A DNA stretch of 64,000 nucleotides, taken from the sequence record OR525701.1; one strand, 5' to 3'. Source of the DNA: Escherichia phage vB-Eco-KMB38. Under the pieces are notes generated by a model. The model was not told the DNA's origin. It was given only the letters and a program-made list of their open reading frames with translations, and searched no databases. How positions within the stretch are numbered: position 1 is the stretch's first letter; every line of letters begins with the position of its first letter. Below are positions 12,179 to 62,861 of this stretch, in pieces. Position numbers and translations under genes: made by a program.

Positions 12179-12787
12179 TCAGTAACTGACAATAGACAGA
12201 TTCCAGATTGTATAACTTCCATCTTGAATAATAGAATCTACACGCAGTGTAGTCCCTATAGGGAGCATAAATTCACATTCGTCGGATATAAGTCTAGCAT
12301 TAGACCGTCTTGTCGCTTCAGGGAAAGCTCCATTGAACTCACAAGATGGCGCAGCCAGAATCATGTTAAGCATATGTTCACGGAAGTTGAAAGCAAATGG
12401 TGCATCTTTGATGCAGAACATATTAAATGTTCCGTAAAAATTATACGAAGCAAAGTTACGTGCTACACTGAACACCGGGCTGAAGCTCATTACTCTATCA
12501 AATTTAATAATACTACCAATGCCTTTATCATCAAGTGTGACCATAGTTTTCTTAGAGATTCCACGATACATTGTCTCAGGAACAGAAGACGACCAATTTC
12601 TACGAACGATTGAACTTAACTCCTGTTGAATACAGTCTGGCTTGTTTTCCATACACTGCCACAGGATGCTTTGTTCATTATCGTTGAATTGACTATCAAT
12701 TTCGTACTGCAATACATCTTGATATTCGGGGTTTTGAGCACGACGAACCATTTCTTCAATTTCACACTCGTTATACGGCATAAACAT
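12179..12787 (-). CDS. modA: ADP-ribosyltransferase ModA
   Basis: 202 aa; paralogous to adjacent ModB-like ORF; conserved YRG(I/V) Arg motif; T4 synteny. Confidence 0.7.
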   Translation of the reverse strand: MFMPYNECEIEEMVRRAQNPEYQDVLQYEIDSQFNDNEQSILWQCMENKPDCIQQELSSIVRRNWSSSVPETMYRGISKKTMVTLDDKGIGSIIKFDRVMSFSPVFSVARNFASYNFYGTFNMFCIKDAPFAFNFREHMLNMILAAPSCEFNGAFPEATRRSNARLISDECEFMLPIGTTLRVDSIIQDGSYTIWNLSIVSY

Positions 12788-12844: not shown

Positions 12845-13426
12845 CTAAAAATTCAACATTTTCAAATGAATGATTTTGTATAATCGAGATAAAGGGTCAT
12901 ATTCTAAGTCTTCAATTTCCACAATCTCAAATCTAGAGATACCTGAGACCATGTACTCTTGTTCAGATTCAATCATATCTAGGACGTCAACACGCGTTTC
13001 TTCCATAACATGCTTAGGGTTCTTTCCGGCGAGTACAATGTTAATCATGTTTTGGTAGTAATCAAAAATGAATGGAGCATTCCTGAGACTAAGAATAGTG
13101 TACGTCTGATATTCCCATCTCCCAGAGAATTGACGAGCTGTACTGAAATCAGTTGTGAACGATGTTACTCGTCCAGGAGACCAATGGCATCCAACAGAAA
13201 GAAGTGAAAGACGTTCTACTTCTTCTGGAGTTACACCGCGGTAGAGTTCTACTGGTACTGTAGAAGTCATATGCTTACGAACAAGATGGTCTAATTCATA
13301 GTGGAAATCCGGGTCTTCCTTAGAATCGGTGCAAGCCCAGAGAATGTTTTGTTCTTGGCGGGTGAATTTGCTATCAATCAGATTTGTTAGGTATTCACGT
13401 TCTTGAAGTTCAGATTGACATGTCAT
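12845..13426 (-). CDS. modB: ADP-ribosyltransferase ModB
   Basis: 193 aa paralog of ModA (shared ILWxC...VPxxxYRG segments). Confidence 0.7.
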   Translation of the reverse strand: MTCQSELQEREYLTNLIDSKFTRQEQNILWACTDSKEDPDFHYELDHLVRKHMTSTVPVELYRGVTPEEVERLSLLSVGCHWSPGRVTSFTTDFSTARQFSGRWEYQTYTILSLRNAPFIFDYYQNMINIVLAGKNPKHVMEETRVDVLDMIESEQEYMVSGISRFEIVEIEDLEYDPLSRLYKIIHLKMLNF

Positions 13427-17832: not shown

Positions 17833-18492
17833 TTAACCTCGATTCATAAATGCATTAAATATTTGGTCATCAACAGAAATTTCTAATTCGACTTCAATTG
17901 CTTCAGCCTTTTCTTCAGGTGGTAATTCGTATCCACACACTACAATTTTTTCATCGATATCAAAATACACAGAAGCAATATGATTAATGTTATTTTCGGT
18001 TAAGTCTAAATCAACATCAACATCTTTTTGACCTACACTTAAAGGATAACTAATACGGGTTATTTTATTATCTTTAACAAAGAGTCCACCGACATACTCT
18101 GTACTACGTTTGAAGTTTACACGTTTCCGAAATGAAAGATATGATGCATCTTTACCGTGAGCTCGGCTCATAGGACATAATGAATAGCTAGAATAAGAGA
18201 TGTCAAATCCTACACCTTCAATATGAGCCAACGCGTCATGATTAAACCAATTATAATCATATGCCAAATCCATTATATTGTAATATGTGAAAGGCACTGG
18301 ATTAACATCATACGTTGTACCTTTAAAATCTGCCCAGGCAACGATTTCGTTATCTTTAACAATTACAAAAATTACACCAATATGATATCCGTTATTATTT
18401 TCGTTCGGCGTTATATTATAACATTGTGCATTAGGAAATTTACCATATTTAAATGGTGCGTTTTTGTGCATGTAATAAATCATATTATTCAC
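17833..18492 (-). CDS. hypothetical protein
   Basis: 219 aa ORF. Confidence 0.6.
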   Translation of the reverse strand: MNNMIYYMHKNAPFKYGKFPNAQCYNITPNENNNGYHIGVIFVIVKDNEIVAWADFKGTTYDVNPVPFTYYNIMDLAYDYNWFNHDALAHIEGVGFDISYSSYSLCPMSRAHGKDASYLSFRKRVNFKRSTEYVGGLFVKDNKITRISYPLSVGQKDVDVDLDLTENNINHIASVYFDIDEKIVVCGYELPPEEKAEAIEVELEISVDDQIFNAFMNRG

Positions 18493-58914: not shown

Positions 58915-59127
58915 TTAATTTTGGCCAGTATTTATTTTTCGCCTTTGGACGGCCTTAACATCTGCGAGGTATTTTTCCAGCTTGCGCTTGCGTGTATAAT
59001 CAGCTTTAGAACCAGTTTGACGGATATCCTCGTTTAAATGAGAAATAGAATGTCCTAATTCTCTTCGGATTTCATCCAATTGGGTTACAGTAAGATTACG
59101 AAGTTGTCTTTCGTTTAATTGCTGCAT
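58915..59127 (-). CDS. small hypothetical protein (rI.1 position)
   Basis: 70 aa ORF. Confidence 0.5.
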
Positions 59128-59151
59128 ATATACCTCTTGGTTAGATATTAG

Positions 59152-59159
59152 TATTTATA
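59152..59159 (-). promoter_or_regulatory. T4 late promoter TATAAATA
   Basis: exact TATAAATA on minus strand about 25 nt upstream of 58915..59127 start. Confidence 0.5.
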
Positions 59160-59736
59160 ACAACCCTGTCAAATCATTCCAATGCTTCCGGCATAATGAC
59201 ACATATCTATCAGTATCACCAATTTCAATTTGACTGCCATCTGTAATTGGAAGTCCGTCTTCCGTGACTCTAGCTACCATTGTGGCCTTTTTACCGCAAT
59301 GACAGACACCTTTAAGTTCAACAAGCTTATCGGCGATAGCCATTAATGCTTGAGAACCTTCAAATAGATTACCTTTAAAATCTGTTCGTAGTCCATATGC
59401 CATTACCGGCACATTGTATACGTCAACAATACGACTAAGTTGATACACCTTTTCAGTAGTTAAGAACTGAGCTTCGTCAACAAATACACAGTGAATATCC
59501 TTTTGTGCTGCAGCCCATTTATAAAATTCAAAGATATCCATGTCTTTTGTAATTATATTGGCATCCTGACGAATACCAATGCGAGAGACTATTTCACCTT
59601 TTGAATCACGAGTATCAATAGCCGGTTTAAGAACTAATACACCCATGCCACGTTCTTTATAGTTATGTGCGGCAGTAAGTAATGAAGCAGACTTACCTGC
59701 GTTCATTGCTGCATATGTAAAAATTAAACTAGCCAT
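59155..59736 (-). CDS. tk: thymidine kinase
   Basis: 193 aa; P-loop MNAGKS, Zn site CHCGKKAT...CRKH; same length as T4 Tk. Confidence 0.9.
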   Translation of the reverse strand: MASLIFTYAAMNAGKSASLLTAAHNYKERGMGVLVLKPAIDTRDSKGEIVSRIGIRQDANIITKDMDIFEFYKWAAAQKDIHCVFVDEAQFLTTEKVYQLSRIVDVYNVPVMAYGLRTDFKGNLFEGSQALMAIADKLVELKGVCHCGKKATMVARVTEDGLPITDGSQIEIGDTDRYVSLCRKHWNDLTGLL

Positions 59737-59745
59737 AAGAGTCCC

Positions 59746-59928
59746 TTATAGTGAATTCACATAGTCAATGAGTTCTTGTTCTTTCCTGTCAAATGATTCC
59801 ATCAATGCTTGATATTCTTCGTCTGTCAAAGGAGCGTATTCATCATACGCACTGGTGGCTGCTTGTTCATCCAATAGGTCATGGATAAGTTCGAACAGTT
59901 TAGTTTTCTCTTCTTTAGTCAATTTCAT
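59746..59928 (-). CDS. small acidic hypothetical protein
   Basis: 60 aa ORF. Confidence 0.45.
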   Translation of the reverse strand: MKLTKEEKTKLFELIHDLLDEQAATSAYDEYAPLTDEEYQALMESFDRKEQELIDYVNSL

Positions 59929-60152
59929 TTAGGTTCACCTTCTTTAACGAAATCCGGGTAAGGGTAAAATCCTGAGTAAAACCCTTCACCTTTATGATTG
60001 CTACAACCTTTGTTCGAACAGTAACACCAATAATCAAAATCACAAGCCATTTCGTCATTGCATAAAGCAAAAACTACAGGCCATTCGCATTTTTCGCATT
60101 TAGCACCTGTAAGAATTTTTGTTTGACTCATAGCCATGTCACCTTTAAGCAA
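59925..60152 (-). CDS. small Cys-rich hypothetical protein
   Basis: 75 aa; 8 Cys. Confidence 0.5.
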   Translation of the reverse strand: MLKGDMAMSQTKILTGAKCEKCEWPVVFALCNDEMACDFDYWCYCSNKGCSNHKGEGFYSGFYPYPDFVKEGEPK

Positions 60153-60355
60153 TATTCTTCTACATGTTGTTTACGGCCTTTCTTATCAATAAAGGTATAT
60201 TCAACGAATGTTCCGATGTAGTCTTTATCTACATCATGTGGACTATTAATTGGACATTTAGTACGACAAATGCGTTCCCATTGACGAATAATTACTGTCT
60301 TATTCTTTGGGTCATATGGATGTGGATAGTGTATATTCATAACAATGGTTCCCAA
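60128..60355 (-). CDS. small hypothetical protein
   Basis: 75 aa ORF. Confidence 0.5.
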   Translation of the reverse strand: MGTIVMNIHYPHPYDPKNKTVIIRQWERICRTKCPINSPHDVDKDYIGTFVEYTFIDKKGRKQHVEEYCLKVTWL

Positions 60356-60834
60356 TCAACAATCACAATTTCTAGTTTAGTGGAATATGTATCTAAAATC
60401 TCTTCGATGACATCCCAGTTTCCACCACCGATACCTGCACCAATTCTTGGCATATAAATTACAGGCTTTGTTATCTTATTCTTTCCGAATTCATTTAATT
60501 CTATTATACAATTCATTAAAGCAGAGTACTCAAAATTAGGTCCCGGCTCAAACTGTGTATAAAGATTAAAGCAATAAGCTTTATGGGTCTTAAAATATTT
60601 TTCATAAACTGAATAAGTCCCGAGTTTAGACTCATCTCCATATACAGTTTGAAGTTTATCGGCTTCCAGAATTTTTGGATAAGCCTTTGCTAATTGTCCT
60701 GCTACACCGGCGCCCATTGTATGAAAACAATTACACCCATGAGCAATATTATTACCTTTAGAAAACAGGGCGACAATATCGCCCTTGATATAGTTTTTAA
60801 TCACTTGCTGCAAGTCCTCTAGTATAAGAGTCAA
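60337..60834 (-). CDS. macro-domain protein (ADP-ribose binding/processing)
   Basis: 165 aa; NIAHGCNCFHTMGAGVAGQLAK and GAGIGGG segments typical of macrodomains. Confidence 0.6.
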   Translation of the reverse strand: MTLILEDLQQVIKNYIKGDIVALFSKGNNIAHGCNCFHTMGAGVAGQLAKAYPKILEADKLQTVYGDESKLGTYSVYEKYFKTHKAYCFNLYTQFEPGPNFEYSALMNCIIELNEFGKNKITKPVIYMPRIGAGIGGGNWDVIEEILDTYSTKLEIVIVDWEPLL

Positions 60835-61144
60835 CTAGGCGGTCTACCATAGAATTGCATGCTGCCTTATCTTTAGGTTCCGCCACCGAGCATTCTAATA
60901 TTTGCCATTTTTTATGATATCGTTTAATTAAGGTAGACGCCTTGAACCTACTAGACGCCCCATCTTTTTCTCCGTCTTTATACGCATATAACAATTTTTG
61001 TGAAAAATCTACTTTACACTCTTGACTTTTACCACAATAATCAGACGCCGTTCTGTTTGTATACTCCGTTACATCAGTATATGTAGTATTAGCAAGAGCG
61101 TTAAATGAAACCAAGCCAACTATTAAAGCCAACATTTTGGTCAT
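60797..61144 (-). CDS. secreted/periplasmic hypothetical protein
   Basis: 115 aa; N-terminal signal peptide; Cys pairs. Confidence 0.55.
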   Translation of the reverse strand: MTKMLALIVGLVSFNALANTTYTDVTEYTNRTASDYCGKSQECKVDFSQKLLYAYKDGEKDGASSRFKASTLIKRYHKKWQILECSVAEPKDKAACNSMVDRLVDSYTRGLAASD

Positions 61145-61683
61145 TCTTTTATTTCCAGTAGTTTATTTGATTTAAGGTAATTAGCCTTTTCTAGGACTTC
61201 AGAAGCATATTTACTTCCAGCACTTGTCTTCCATCCCGCATTGTATGAGGATATAGCTTTTCTTATATCCCCGTTATGTATATTTAACCAATAAGAAAAT
61301 TCGATATAAGCCCATCTGGTTGAATTAGACCGCTTAGATAGCATTTTCTTAATTTGGGCATCAGTCATATTATAACCAAGCTGGTTAATTCTTGCCCTCA
61401 TTGTTGGTAGATAGTTTTGGAACATTCCATACGCATGGTGACCTTTCTTATCTTTAAGATTAATACCAGCAGATGATTCCTGCCATAGTATTGCGGCCAT
61501 TATGTATCCAAGTCCTTTCTTATGCATATTTTCATGCGTTTTAAATTTTCCATCCTTAGAAAACTGCTCCCCAAACTGATAAGCATAATTCAAGTTATCG
61601 AGTTGGACATTACTAAAAGTATGCTCGGAGCTATGTGCTGATAATGAAAGAGCAAATAGACCAGCGAGTAGTGCTTTTCTCAT
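61141..61683 (-). CDS. periplasmic lytic-transglycosylase-like (SLT domain) protein
   Basis: 180 aa; signal peptide; AILWQESS, YGMFQ, AYNAG motifs. Confidence 0.6.
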   Translation of the reverse strand: MRKALLAGLFALSLSAHSSEHTFSNVQLDNLNYAYQFGEQFSKDGKFKTHENMHKKGLGYIMAAILWQESSAGINLKDKKGHHAYGMFQNYLPTMRARINQLGYNMTDAQIKKMLSKRSNSTRWAYIEFSYWLNIHNGDIRKAISSYNAGWKTSAGSKYASEVLEKANYLKSNKLLEIKE

Positions 61684-61691
61684 GTTTACCT

Positions 61692-62150
61692 CTAGATTTT
61701 AATCACTGCTTTAGAAGCTTTTCCTGGTAGTCGTTTACTGTTAATAATAGCCATTCTGCATTGAAGAGTCTTCATTTTGAACGCTGGATTTTCGCGACAA
61801 ACTGTAAGTCCTAACCAAAGATTTCCATCAGTTATTTCTAAACGGCCCGGGCGATATTCGACACCTTCGACAAAATCTTCATCAACATCTGGACGTGCCG
61901 GCATTGATAAAAATTCTGCAACTTCTTTAACATGATTTTTTACTTTACGAAATAATTCAAAAACGTAATTCTCATCTATTTCTCTCTGGATGGCACGATC
62001 TAAGAGATGTTGAGAATACTTGATATGAAAGCCGGGTAGCCCAAGAGACTTTGCAGCATCTTTTATACCGGCATTTATTTTGCGGAACTCCGTTTCAAAG
62101 ATTCGACGGAGTTTATTACGGCGGATAAAAACGTCTGAATTGATAGTCAT
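61692..62150 (-). CDS. regB: RegB site-specific endoribonuclease
   Basis: ORF-track 61692..62174; start re-set to MTINSDVFIRRNKLRR; closely parallels T4 RegB. Confidence 0.8.
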   Translation of the reverse strand: MTINSDVFIRRNKLRRIFETEFRKINAGIKDAAKSLGLPGFHIKYSQHLLDRAIQREIDENYVFELFRKVKNHVKEVAEFLSMPARPDVDEDFVEGVEYRPGRLEITDGNLWLGLTVCRENPAFKMKTLQCRMAIINSKRLPGKASKAVIKI

Positions 62151-62178
62151 TTTGATTTCTCCTCTAGTTGACATGTCT

Positions 62179-62207
62179 ATAGTAACACAACTAGAGGAGA
62201 AGTAAAC
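62179..62207 (-). promoter_or_regulatory. T4-type early promoter (-35 GTTTAC, 17 bp, -10 TACTAT)
   Basis: hexamers upstream of regB. Confidence 0.5.
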
Positions 62208-62211
62208 TACT

Positions 62212-62427
62212 TTATTGATAAAATGGAGTTAAAGCCCAAGATTCTTTAGATACCATATTGGCGAAATGCCTCATCTCTTCGATTTGGCGACGACGTTGGT
62301 CAGCATAGTCTTCTTCGCCTTCTTCCTTACAATCTTCAAGGTCTTCTTCAAGATACTTTAAGTATTCACTACAAATTTTGTTGACTTTTTCTTGAAAGTC
62401 CAATAACCCGGTAATAGTAGAAGCCAT
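62212..62427 (-). CDS. small hypothetical protein
   Basis: 71 aa ORF. Confidence 0.5.
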   Translation of the reverse strand: MASTITGLLDFQEKVNKICSEYLKYLEEDLEDCKEEGEEDYADQRRRQIEEMRHFANMVSKESWALTPFYQ

Positions 62428-62861
62428 TAGTATTTTTCCTCAGGTCGAAATACTGCACGGCATGCCCACATACTAGCTTCTTTTAGATGTTGCTTAGCAT
62501 ACTTAAGAGCCTGCACTGCATCCATATCTTCTTTGGTTTGTTGCTCTGTTTCGTTTTCTTTCAAGATATATGCTTCTTCAATCAGAGCATCAAACATCAA
62601 TCCAAGACGGACTTCAGCATCTTTGATAGCGTTCACTTTATTGATTTTATCGTCGGTATGCGGCTTGTAGCCTTTGATGTCTTCAATCGACATAAGGAAT
62701 TTCCTCATCGGTGGCAAGGTCATATTCGACCAATTGGATAGGCTCGTTAATACCATATCCACGTACAGTGATATCAGTTGTCGGATAGTTTCCAGTAATA
62801 TCACCCATTCTAAATGCTTCAATGAATGATTGCTCGCCTGAGCAACTAAACCAGGCGGCAA
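62427..62861 (-). CDS. hypothetical protein
   Basis: 144 aa ORF (start uncertain). Confidence 0.45.
   Translation of the reverse strand: MPPGLVAQASNHSLKHLEWVILLETIRQLISLYVDMVLTSLSNWSNMTLPPMRKFLMSIEDIKGYKPHTDDKINKVNAIKDAEVRLGLMFDALIEEAYILKENETEQQTKEDMDAVQALKYAKQHLKEASMWACRAVFRPEEKY

What the first reader, a model, noticed from the sequence alone, without database searches (positions are those of the whole stretch)
60337..60834. Macro-domain protein in the tk-regB region
The GAGVAGQ and GIGGG glycine-rich loops indicate an ADP-ribose-binding or hydrolysing macrodomain. In a phage that also encodes ModA/ModB ADP-ribosyltransferases, it could reverse ADP-ribosylation (phage- or host-defence-derived, e.g. 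DarT-like DNA ADP-ribosylation) or process O-acetyl-ADP-ribose.
Basis: inference. Interest (0 to 1): 0.5.

Follow-up and report, generated by a model that had tools for sequence, protein, structure and literature searches.

The report
Phage macrodomain that counters DarT2 defence
This gene is the RB69-group copy of phage T4 gene tk.4 (adfM), a small ADP-ribose-removing macrodomain enzyme that a 2025 preprint showed T4 needs to grow on bacteria carrying the DNA-ADP-ribosylating DarTG2 defence, so the finding is real but already known.

Summary
The ORF and both glycine loops are real. The window is a Mosigvirus (RB69-like T-even phage), and the gene is the syntenic ortholog of T4 tk.4 (83-84% aa identity). 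The likely start is GTG 60804 (155 aa), not the TTG at 60834. The protein passes the Pfam Macro threshold, and its AlphaFold model (pLDDT 96) best matches TARG1, Poa1p, DarG, BT1257 and SCO6735. T4 tk.4 has long been annotated 'A1pp phosphatase'. A 2025 preprint (HIDEN-SEQ) renamed it adfM: it was the only transposon hit on a DarTG2 host, and a clean knockout sensitised T4. One detail I did not find in the papers I read: the Tk.4 family has an invariant Gln (Q84) where DarG2, TARG1 and PhiKZ 'AdfM' have the catalytic Lys. This is the SCO6735-type active site (H22/N25/Q84 = SCO6735 H24/N27/Q85), and SCO6735 is a proven thymidine-ADP-ribose DNA hydrolase. The 80 closest bacterial relatives are stand-alone ~150-aa proteins, and no DarT homolog was found within about 4 kb. 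Best explanation: a stand-alone DNA de-ADP-ribosylase that erases DarT2 marks. Interest is low.

The parts
60337..60804 (-). tk.4/adfM ortholog CDS. It has a GTG start, encodes 155 aa and ends in TGA. It is a stand-alone macrodomain.
   Evidence: start aligned to the T4 ATG and to the annotated Mosigvirus CDS; Pfam Macro; pLDDT 96
60805..60834 (-). In-frame upstream extension from the first TTG. It is probably not translated as part of this protein and lies inside the 3' end of vs.
60815..60820 (-). AGAGGA Shine-Dalgarno-like sequence 10 nt upstream of the GTG start. The GTG overlaps the vs stop codon (GTGATTAA), which suggests translational coupling.
   Evidence: read directly from the sequence
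60727..60741 (-). H22-G-C-N25-C motif. H22 and N25 correspond to SCO6735 H24 and N27. N25 also corresponds to PhiKZ AdfM N23, whose mutation reduces activity.
   Evidence: PMC9411070; PMC13309987
60694..60717 (-). Glycine loop 1, MGAGVAGQ (residues 30-37), the phosphate-binding loop of the ADP-ribose cleft. G33 is invariant.
60553..60567 (-). N80-L-Y-T-Q84 motif. Q84 occupies the position of the catalytic Lys of TARG1 (K84) and DarG (K80), and equals SCO6735 Q85. It is invariant in 94 phage/metagenome and 80 bacterial homologs.
   Evidence: PMC9411070
60415..60450 (-). Glycine loop 2, PRIGAGIGGGNW (residues 119-130). G126 sits where TARG1 has D125. G128 is as in SCO6735 and BT1257, whereas DarG, TARG1 and PhiKZ AdfM have Leu.
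60767..60785 (-). Conserved GC-rich RNA hairpin (8-bp stem, 3-nt loop) with a U-rich tail, inside codons 7-13 of the ORF. It may be a terminator, attenuator or stability element.
60337..60340 (-). ATGA overlap: the TGA stop of adfM shares bases with the ATG of the downstream tk.3 homolog (MNIHYPHPY...).

Best explanation
The gene encodes the Mosigvirus ortholog of T4 Tk.4/AdfM. This is a 155-aa stand-alone macrodomain ADP-ribosylglycohydrolase, made from the vs-tk operon. When the host DarT2 toxin ADP-ribosylates thymidines in single-stranded phage DNA (TNTC motifs), the enzyme most likely binds the ADP-ribose in its two-glycine-loop cleft and hydrolyses the N-glycosidic thymine-ribose bond. 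That restores replicable DNA and lets the phage escape DarTG2 abortive infection. Its active site is the SCO6735 type rather than the Lys-dependent DarG2/TARG1 type. In the SCO6735 type a Gln positions the distal ribose, His and Asn assist, and catalysis runs through an activated water. Shown: macrodomain identity, orthology and synteny with T4 tk.4, conservation of the H/N/Q signature, and (published, for T4) the genetic requirement on DarTG2 hosts. Inferred: the enzymatic activity of this protein on dT-ADPr DNA, the SCO6735-like chemistry, and that the Mosigvirus copy behaves like the T4 copy.
For: It is the ortholog of T4 tk.4: 83-84% identity over the full length and the same gene order. 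It has a macrodomain sequence and fold. The only PADLOC and NCBIfam hits are to the macrodomain part of DarG. In T4, tk.4 was the single significant hit of a transposon screen on a DarTG2 host, and a clean knockout was sensitised (10.1101/2025.11.20.689424). Q84, N25 and H22 align with SCO6735 Q85, N27 and H24. SCO6735 hydrolyses thymidine-linked ADP-ribose on DNA, and Q85A abolishes that activity (PMC9411070). Q84 and N25 are invariant in 94 phage/metagenome and 80 bacterial homologs. An unrelated phage macrodomain, PhiKZ gp104, removes DarT2 marks in vitro and rescues DarT2 toxicity (PMC13309987). This shows that stand-alone phage macrodomains can do the job.
Against: I found no biochemistry for Tk.4 from T4 or any T-even phage in the held literature. 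The T4 evidence is a preprint, and the phenotype was measured under special conditions (M9 glucose, 30 C). This Mosigvirus copy has not been tested. The catalytic Lys of DarG2 is absent, and so are SCO6735's DNA-binding K34 and K89 (A32 and G88 here). Activity on DNA therefore cannot simply be transferred from either enzyme. SCO6735 also inhibits DarT by direct interaction, so protection could be partly non-catalytic. The family occurs in about 5.5% of all phage records and in many bacteria with no DarT homolog found nearby. That breadth hints at a wider or different primary substrate.
Confidence: 0.75

Rival explanations
1. It is an ADP-ribose-1''-phosphate (Appr1p) phosphatase or O-acyl-ADP-ribose deacylase that acts on soluble ADP-ribose derivatives, for example by-products of RNA repair or sirtuin reactions. 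This is the historical 'A1pp phosphatase' annotation.
For: T4 tk.4 and PHROG 335 are annotated 'phosphatase'. Yeast Poa1p is among the best sequence and structure hits and shares the H-x-C-N-C motif. TARG1/OARD1 is named as an O-acetyl-ADP-ribose deacetylase.
Against: The annotation rests on homology only. At the Q84 position Poa1p has Ser or Thr, not Gln (alignment). The one phenotype known for the T4 ortholog is DarTG2-specific. A soluble-metabolite role would not explain that phenotype.
Confidence: 0.07
2. It reverses protein ADP-ribosylation. The marks could be the phage's own Alt/ModA/ModB marks, including RNAylation, or marks made by host defence ADP-ribosyltransferases on Glu/Asp.
For: The window encodes two Mod-like ADP-ribosyltransferases. 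SCO6735 and TARG1 also hydrolyse Glu-linked protein ADP-ribose.
Against: Alt, ModA and ModB modify arginine. By established knowledge, Arg-ADP-ribose is cleaved by ARH-type enzymes and not by macrodomains (background knowledge, not tested here). The gene is not linked to the mod genes, which lie 47 kb away. No phenotype points this way in the T4 screens described.
Confidence: 0.07
3. It protects mainly without catalysis, either by binding and blocking DarT2 or by binding ADP-ribosylated DNA or ADP-ribose as a reader or sponge.
For: Catalytically dead SCO6735 Q85A inhibits DarT in vitro more strongly than DarG or TARG1 mutants do. The phage factors AdfA and AdfB act by binding DarT.
Against: The hydrolase signature H22/N25/Q84 and both glycine loops are invariant across homologs of 35-95% identity. 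Homologs are widespread in bacteria with no DarT homolog found nearby. Both facts fit a conserved enzyme better than a toxin-specific binder.
Confidence: 0.06
4. Its main substrate is ADP-ribosylated RNA, such as uracil or phosphate-end ADP-ribosylation, produced by DarT2-like or other RNA-targeting toxins.
For: TARG1-class enzymes act on some RNA ADP-ribose linkages (PMC11833690). A 2026 NAR paper on reversible uracil ADP-ribosylation mentions both DarG and SCO6735, but I saw it only in a search listing and did not read it.
Against: In the results of PMC11833690, SCO6735 was inactive on 5'-phosphate ADP-ribosylated RNA and DNA and on 2'-OH RNA ADP-ribosylation, although that paper's discussion words the phosphate-end result differently. 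There are no data for Tk.4.
Confidence: 0.05

Closest known systems
T4 Tk.4 = AdfM (anti-DarT factor Macrodomain; NP_049723; HIDEN-SEQ preprint 10.1101/2025.11.20.689424)
   Same: 83-84% identical over all 155 aa. Same position between vs and tk.3. Same start context overlapping the vs stop. Same H-G-C-N-C, T-Q and glycine-loop motifs. Even the same 5' hairpin.
   Different: GTG rather than ATG start. GGG rather than GKG in loop 2. The host-range phenotype has not been tested for the Mosigvirus copy.
Streptomyces coelicolor SCO6735 (PDB 5E3B), a stand-alone thymidine-ADP-ribose DNA hydrolase
   Same: Stand-alone ~150-aa macrodomain of the ALC1/TARG1-like class, not encoded next to a DarT. It has Gln at the catalytic-Lys position, plus the conserved His and Asn and the AGG.W-type loop 2 (PMC9411070).
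   Different: About 21% sequence identity in the Foldseek structural alignment. SCO6735 has 'GQ' where Tk.4 has 'TQ'. The DNA-binding K34 and K89 of SCO6735 are A32 and G88 here. It is a bacterial DNA-damage-induced gene rather than a phage gene.
DarG2 antitoxin macrodomain (T. aquaticus, M. tuberculosis; PDB 5M31, 5M3E, 5M3I)
   Same: Same fold and same macrodomain class. It is the only hit in PADLOC and NCBIfam. It removes the same DarT2 mark that the T4 ortholog counters genetically.
   Different: DarG2 has catalytic Lys80 ('PTK'), a C-terminal DarT-binding domain (about 340 aa in total) and an adjacent darT. Tk.4 has Gln, no C-terminal domain and no darT.
PhiKZ gp104 'AdfM' (chimallivirus DarG2-like macrodomain; PMC13309987)
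   Same: A stand-alone phage macrodomain that counters DarTG2. The conserved Asn (N23 there, N25 here) is shared. hhalign probability is 96.4%.
   Different: It is Lys-type ('FPTK', 'GGLD') like DarG2. BLASTP similarity to the window protein is limited to 23 residues. It is imported into the phage nucleus. The two proteins share a name but belong to different macrodomain subfamilies.
Human TARG1/OARD1 and yeast Poa1p
   Same: They are the top Foldseek hits (E 4e-10 and 2e-9). The overall fold is shared, as are the H-x-C-N-C (Poa1p) and P-R-I-G-x-G motifs.
   Different: The TARG1 catalytic dyad K84/D125 is Q84/G126 here. Poa1p acts on the soluble substrate Appr1p.

Membership tests
Macro domain superfamily (Pfam PF01661) | Profile match above Pfam's gathering score | tested here: met
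   28.8 bits against a cut-off of 22, E=1.2e-6, covering profile positions 2-117 of 118
Macro domain superfamily (Pfam PF01661) | Three-layer alpha/beta/alpha macrodomain fold with two glycine-rich loops lining the ADP-ribose cleft | tested here: met
   AF2 model with pLDDT 96.2. All top Foldseek PDB hits are macrodomains at probability 1.00. Loops MGAGVAGQ and IGAGIGGG are present, and G33, G122 and G124 are invariant.
ALC1/TARG1-like macrodomain class | Closest structural and sequence relatives are TARG1, DarG, SCO6735 and Poa1p rather than MacroD or PARG types | tested here: met
   Profile against PDB: BT1257 9e-18, TARG1 2e-16, SCO6735 6e-15, Poa1p 1e-13, Mtb DarG 3e-13; coronavirus Mac1 only 1.6e-4. 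Foldseek gives the same order.
TARG1 (Lys/Asp dyad mechanism) | Catalytic Lys84 and Asp125 | tested here: not met
   The profile alignment puts Q84 opposite K84 and G126 opposite D125
DarG2 antitoxin (NCBIfam NF048014 equivalog) | Full-length match above the equivalog cut-off, including the C-terminal DarT-binding domain | tested here: not met
   31.5 bits against a cut-off of 250. Only profile positions 4-146 of 338 match, and the protein is 155 aa.
DarG2 antitoxin (NCBIfam NF048014 equivalog) | Catalytic Lys80 in the 'PTK' motif | tested here: not met
   Gln in the window protein and in all 174 homologs. Lys in Mtb DarG, two plasmid DarG2 proteins and PhiKZ gp104.
DarG2 antitoxin (NCBIfam NF048014 equivalog) | Encoded next to a darT (DUF4433) toxin gene | tested here: not met
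   tblastn with three DarT2 proteins found nothing in the window (best E=0.54) and nothing in the 80 bacterial homolog loci. Genuine DarTG2 operons show the pairing.
SCO6735-type (Gln) thymidine-ADPr hydrolases | Gln at the catalytic-Lys position, plus the conserved His and Asn of the active site | tested here: met
   H22, N25 and Q84 align with SCO6735 H24, N27 and Q85. Their roles in SCO6735 come from PMC9411070.
SCO6735-type (Gln) thymidine-ADPr hydrolases | Electropositive DNA-binding lysines K34 and K89 | tested here: not met
   The aligned residues are A32 and G88. The surface charge of the model was not computed.
SCO6735-type (Gln) thymidine-ADPr hydrolases | Hydrolysis of dT-ADP-ribose on ssDNA | not testable with these tools
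   Needs an enzyme assay
T4 Tk.4/AdfM orthologous group | High full-length identity and conserved synteny (regB, vs.1, vs, tk.4, tk.3, tk.2, tk.1, tk) | tested here: met
   83-84% identity with no internal gaps. Gene order. Several genera of Tevenvirinae show the same vs-to-macrodomain junction.
T4 Tk.4/AdfM orthologous group | Required for plaquing on DarTG2-expressing E. coli | not testable with these tools
   Shown only for T4
Poa1p-type Appr1p phosphatase | Phosphatase activity on ADP-ribose-1''-phosphate | not testable with these tools
   There is sequence similarity only (6LFU E=1.3e-8, mostly the N-terminal 95 residues)

The most novel reading that the evidence does not exclude
T-even 'AdfM' (Tk.4) may not be a captured DarG2 antitoxin. 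It may instead belong to a separate, very widespread Gln-type lineage of stand-alone macrodomains (BT1257/SCO6735-like) that phages and bacteria both use as general erasers of toxic nucleic-acid ADP-ribosylation. Under this reading, anti-DarT2 activity arose at least twice in phage macrodomains: a Gln-type in T-even and many other phages, and a Lys-type in chimalliviruses. The two would use different chemistry, and the Gln-type might have a broader substrate range (DNA thymine, RNA uracil, protein Glu/Asp).
Probability: 0.45. Interest if true: 0.4.

Novelty: already known. Interest (0 to 1): 0.2.

Why it matters
The gene shows how T-even phages carry enzymatic 'orphan antitoxin-like' erasers against both DarTG types: AdfN (a NADAR enzyme) for guanine marks and AdfM (a macrodomain) for thymine marks. 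This copy adds nothing fundamentally new. The useful residue of this work is fourfold. First, the function can be transferred to Mosigvirus with reasonable confidence. Second, the start codon is corrected, and a truncated GenBank annotation is flagged. Third, the T-even enzyme has the Gln-type (SCO6735-like) active site rather than the Lys-type DarG2 site. That predicts different mutational sensitivities (Q84A and N25A should be dead; there is no Lys to target). It also means inhibitors or mechanistic conclusions drawn from DarG2 or PhiKZ AdfM may not transfer. Fourth, the family is present in about 5.5% of sequenced phage genomes.

Tried and rejected
1. TTG 60834 and TTG 60813 as starts. Both rejected in favour of GTG 60804. 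The T4 ATG aligns there, a related Mosigvirus record annotates it, and TTG 60813 sits only 1 nt after the Shine-Dalgarno sequence.

2. The 126-aa CDS annotated in phage PTK, which starts at Met40 of the long ORF. Rejected as an annotation artefact: it removes the first beta-strands and the H-G-C-N-C motif.

3. Membership of DarG2 proper. Rejected: the score is below the equivalog cut-off, there is no C-terminal domain, no catalytic Lys and no darT neighbour.

4. The TARG1 Lys/Asp mechanism. Rejected.

5. A search for DarT next to the closest bacterial homologs. None was found in 80 loci, so the 'captured antitoxin' origin is not supported for this lineage. Flanks reached at most 4 kb and were shorter at contig ends, and the search used three DarT2 queries only.

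6. The sigma-70 promoter scan of 59000-62600 was uninformative: 10 sites against 13.3 expected by chance. T4 middle and late promoters were not modelled.

7. Literature searches for biochemical data on Tk.4 found none.

8. I could not obtain model coordinates to measure active-site geometry or surface charge.

9. The T. aquaticus DarG sequence itself was not available. Mtb DarG (from a PDB alignment) and two plasmid DarG2 proteins were used instead.

Full report
**The observation**

The minus strand carries an ORF at 60337-60834, 165 aa when counted from the first TTG. The window is 100% identical over this stretch to Escherichia phage PTK, a Mosigvirus (RB69-like T-even phage). It is 80-99% identical at nucleotide level to 377 phage records. 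The neighbours are tk (59155-59736), three small tk.1-3 homologs, vs (60797-61144), vs.1 (61141-61683) and regB (61692-62174). This order matches T4, so the 'tk-regB region' description is correct.

**The start codon**

The T4 ortholog tk.4 is 155 aa. Its ATG aligns exactly with a GTG at 60804-60802. A related Mosigvirus, O157 typing phage 3, annotates a 468-nt 'macro domain protein' CDS that begins at the same position. AGAGGA lies 10 nt upstream. The GTG overlaps the vs stop codon (GTGATTAA), and the TGA stop overlaps the ATG of the next gene (ATGA). These are typical translationally coupled T-even junctions. The gene is therefore 60337-60804. The extra 30 nt belong to vs. The PTK record annotates only a 126-aa fragment starting at an internal Met, which removes conserved N-terminal elements.

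**What it is**

- Pfam Macro: E=1.2e-6, above the gathering score.
- PHROG 335 'phosphatase': E=9e-67.
- The only PADLOC and NCBIfam hits are to the N-terminal macrodomain of DarG. The NCBIfam score is far below the DarG equivalog cut-off, 31.5 against 250 bits.
- The large protein database returned 368 homologs.
- An AlphaFold2 model built on 94 of them has pLDDT 96.2 and pTM 0.91.
- Its best Foldseek matches in the PDB are TARG1, Poa1p, T. aquaticus and M. tuberculosis DarG macrodomains, BT1257, Thermosipho DarTG and SCO6735. All have probability 1.00. MacroD and viral Mac1 types score clearly weaker.
- A profile search of PDB sequences gives the same picture.

The protein is a macrodomain of the ALC1/TARG1-like class.

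**What is already known**

T4 tk.4 is annotated 'phosphatase; contains A1pp phosphatase motif' in the reference genome. The HIDEN-SEQ preprint (10.1101/2025.11.20.689424) reports three things:
- tk.4 was the single significant transposon-insertion hit when a T4 library was grown on E. coli expressing DarTG2.
- A clean tk.4 knockout became sensitive to DarTG2.
- The authors renamed the gene adfM (anti-DarT factor Macrodomain) and proposed enzymatic removal of ADP-ribose from DNA. No biochemistry was shown.

Related work sets the context:
- AdfN (gp30.3, a NADAR enzyme) does the equivalent job against DarTG1 (PMC11825919).
- PhiKZ gp104 was independently also named AdfM. It removes DarT2 marks from TNTC oligonucleotides in vitro, N23A reduces its activity, and it rescues DarT2 toxicity (PMC13309987).

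**Active-site type**

I aligned the window protein and T4 Tk.4 with the following sequences:
- phage and bacterial homologs;
- BT1257 and SCO6735 (sequences recovered from PDB alignments);
- M. tuberculosis DarG;
- two genuine plasmid DarG2 proteins encoded next to DUF4433 DarT genes;
- PhiKZ gp104 (translated from the published construct);
- TARG1.

At the position of the catalytic lysine (TARG1 K84, DarG K80), the Tk.4 family has Gln84. It is invariant in 94 of 94 phage/metagenome homologs and 80 of 80 bacterial homologs. Q84 was not part of the search pattern used to find the bacterial set. SCO6735 (Q85) and BT1257 also have Gln. Mtb DarG, both plasmid DarG2 proteins, PhiKZ gp104 and TARG1 have Lys.

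| Position (155-aa numbering) | Tk.4 family | SCO6735 / BT1257 | DarG2 proteins | PhiKZ gp104 | TARG1 |
|---|---|---|---|---|---|
| 84 | Q | Q | K | K | K |
| 128 | G | G | L | L | L |
| 22 | H | H | N | I | H |
| 126 (TARG1 D125) | G or A | A | G | G | D |

For SCO6735, PMC9411070 shows hydrolysis of thymidine-linked ADP-ribose on DNA and complete loss of activity in Q85A and Q85E. It proposes a water-mediated mechanism distinct from the Lys-based one, and reports that catalytically dead SCO6735 inhibits DarT through interaction. Numbering the SCO6735 sequence recovered from the PDB alignment confirms H24, N27, K34, Q85 and K89. These align with Tk.4 H22, N25, A32, Q84 and G88. The T-even enzyme thus shares the catalytic signature of SCO6735 but not its two DNA-binding lysines.

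**Origin and distribution**

A scan of 185,579 species genomes found 382 relatives. The best 80 are 35-45% identical. About 70 of the 80 ORFs are 147-190 aa from the first start codon. One ORF has a long C-terminal extension (L030), and none resembles a DarG2-length protein of about 340 aa. tblastn with three DarT2 proteins found no DarT within the flanks of these 80 loci, and none in the window. The flanks reach at most 4 kb. tblastn against 50,697 phage records found the family in 2,796 of them. These cover Tevenvirinae generally, rV5-like, FelixO1-like and Vi1-like phages, Campylobacter, Pseudomonas, Vibrio and Aeromonas phages and some jumbo phages. This is a large stand-alone lineage, not an obvious recent capture of a DarG2 antitoxin. 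BLASTP similarity to PhiKZ AdfM is limited to 23 residues, although profile comparison recognises the homology at 96.4% probability.

**Mechanism**

The most likely mechanism (confidence about 0.75) is as follows. The protein is made from the vs-tk operon. It binds ADP-ribose attached to thymine N3 on single-stranded phage DNA through its two glycine loops. Q84, N25 and H22 position the distal ribose and a water molecule. The N-glycosidic bond is hydrolysed, the base is restored and replication proceeds despite DarT2.

Shown here:
- fold;
- orthology with T4 tk.4;
- conservation of the active-site signature.

Shown in the literature:
- the T4 genetic phenotype;
- SCO6735 chemistry;
- the activity of PhiKZ AdfM.

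Inferred:
- that this protein has the activity;
- that it uses SCO6735-like chemistry.

The rivals are each individually unlikely and are listed with their tests: a soluble Appr1p or OAADPr enzyme, reversal of protein ADP-ribosylation (including the phage's own Mod enzymes at 12179-12787 and 12845-13426), non-catalytic DarT2 binding, and RNA de-ADP-ribosylation.

**Side observations**

- A GC-rich hairpin (AGGGCGAU-AUU-GUCGCCCU, -13 kcal/mol, z = -3.3) with a U-rich tail lies at 60785-60767, inside codons 7-13. A 26-nt stretch that includes it is identical in T4, in a divergent Tequatrovirus and in a Dhakavirus, although their proteins are only 57-84% identical to this one. In Kagamiyamavirus EcS1 the stem is kept through compensatory changes, G-C to A-U and U.G to C-G. 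Merlin and a Jiaodavirus lack it but fold a different hairpin slightly downstream. It may be a terminator, attenuator or RNA-stability element.
- The window's AdfA (gp61.2) homolog at 17836-18483 is 98% identical to RB69 AdfA. It carries His at the position where RB69 has the inactive Arg164, which is the T4-like active allele.

**Verdict**

The feature is real and correctly interpreted. It is an ortholog of a gene whose family has been annotated for two decades and whose anti-DarTG2 role was reported in 2025. Novelty: already known. The only increment is the Gln-type (SCO6735-like) classification and the distinction from the Lys-type PhiKZ 'AdfM'. Interest: about 0.2.

Noticed in passing
window 60767-60785 (minus strand), inside codons 7-13 of the adfM ORF: A stable GC-rich hairpin (8-bp stem, 3-nt loop, -13 kcal/mol, z -3.3) followed by a U-rich tail. 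The sequence is identical in T4, KMB42 and Dhakavirus IME281 even though their proteins are only 57-84% identical to this one. EcS1 keeps the stem through compensatory G-C to A-U and U.G to C-G changes. Merlin and KEN39 lack it but have a different hairpin about 15 nt further downstream. It may be a terminator, attenuator or RNA-stability element.
   Followed up: partly
window 17836-18483 (minus strand): A homolog of AdfA (gp61.2), the anti-DarT1 factor. It is 98% identical to RB69 AdfA but has His where RB69 has the inactive Arg164, which is the T4-like 'active' allele described in PMC11825919. The listed ORF begins 4 codons upstream of the RB69 annotated start.
   Followed up: partly
window 12179-12787 and 12845-13426 (both minus strand): Two adjacent Mod-like ADP-ribosyltransferase ORFs (202 and 193 aa), 30-38% identical to T4 ModA and ModB. 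Both match ModB better than ModA, so a one-to-one ModA/ModB assignment is unclear.
   Followed up: partly
L001 4118-4498 (GenBank MW512264.1, protein QSL99204.1): The phage PTK record annotates this gene as a 126-aa 'hypothetical protein' that starts at an internal Met. That cuts off the N-terminal strands and the H-G-C-N-C motif, so it is probably a start-codon misannotation.
   Followed up: yes
literature: 10.1101/2025.11.20.689424 versus PMC13309987: The name AdfM was given independently to two different proteins. T4 Tk.4 is a Gln-type, SCO6735-like macrodomain. PhiKZ gp104 is a Lys-type, DarG2-like macrodomain. Their BLASTP similarity covers only 23 residues.
   Followed up: yes
L030 3926-5668 (Ruegeria sp. 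MAG, NZ_JBFOMD010000001.1): Among the 80 closest bacterial homologs, this is the only one with a long C-terminal extension: about 398 codons of continuous open frame after the matched macrodomain region. The extension was not identified.
   Followed up: no
phage collection: Tk.4-like macrodomains occur in 2,796 of 50,697 phage records (about 5.5%), far beyond T-even phages. They appear in rV5-like, FelixO1-like and Vi1-like phages, in Campylobacter, Pseudomonas and Vibrio phages and in some jumbo phages. Annotations are inconsistent: 'phosphatase', 'macro domain protein', 'Appr-1-p processing' or 'hypothetical'.
   Followed up: partly
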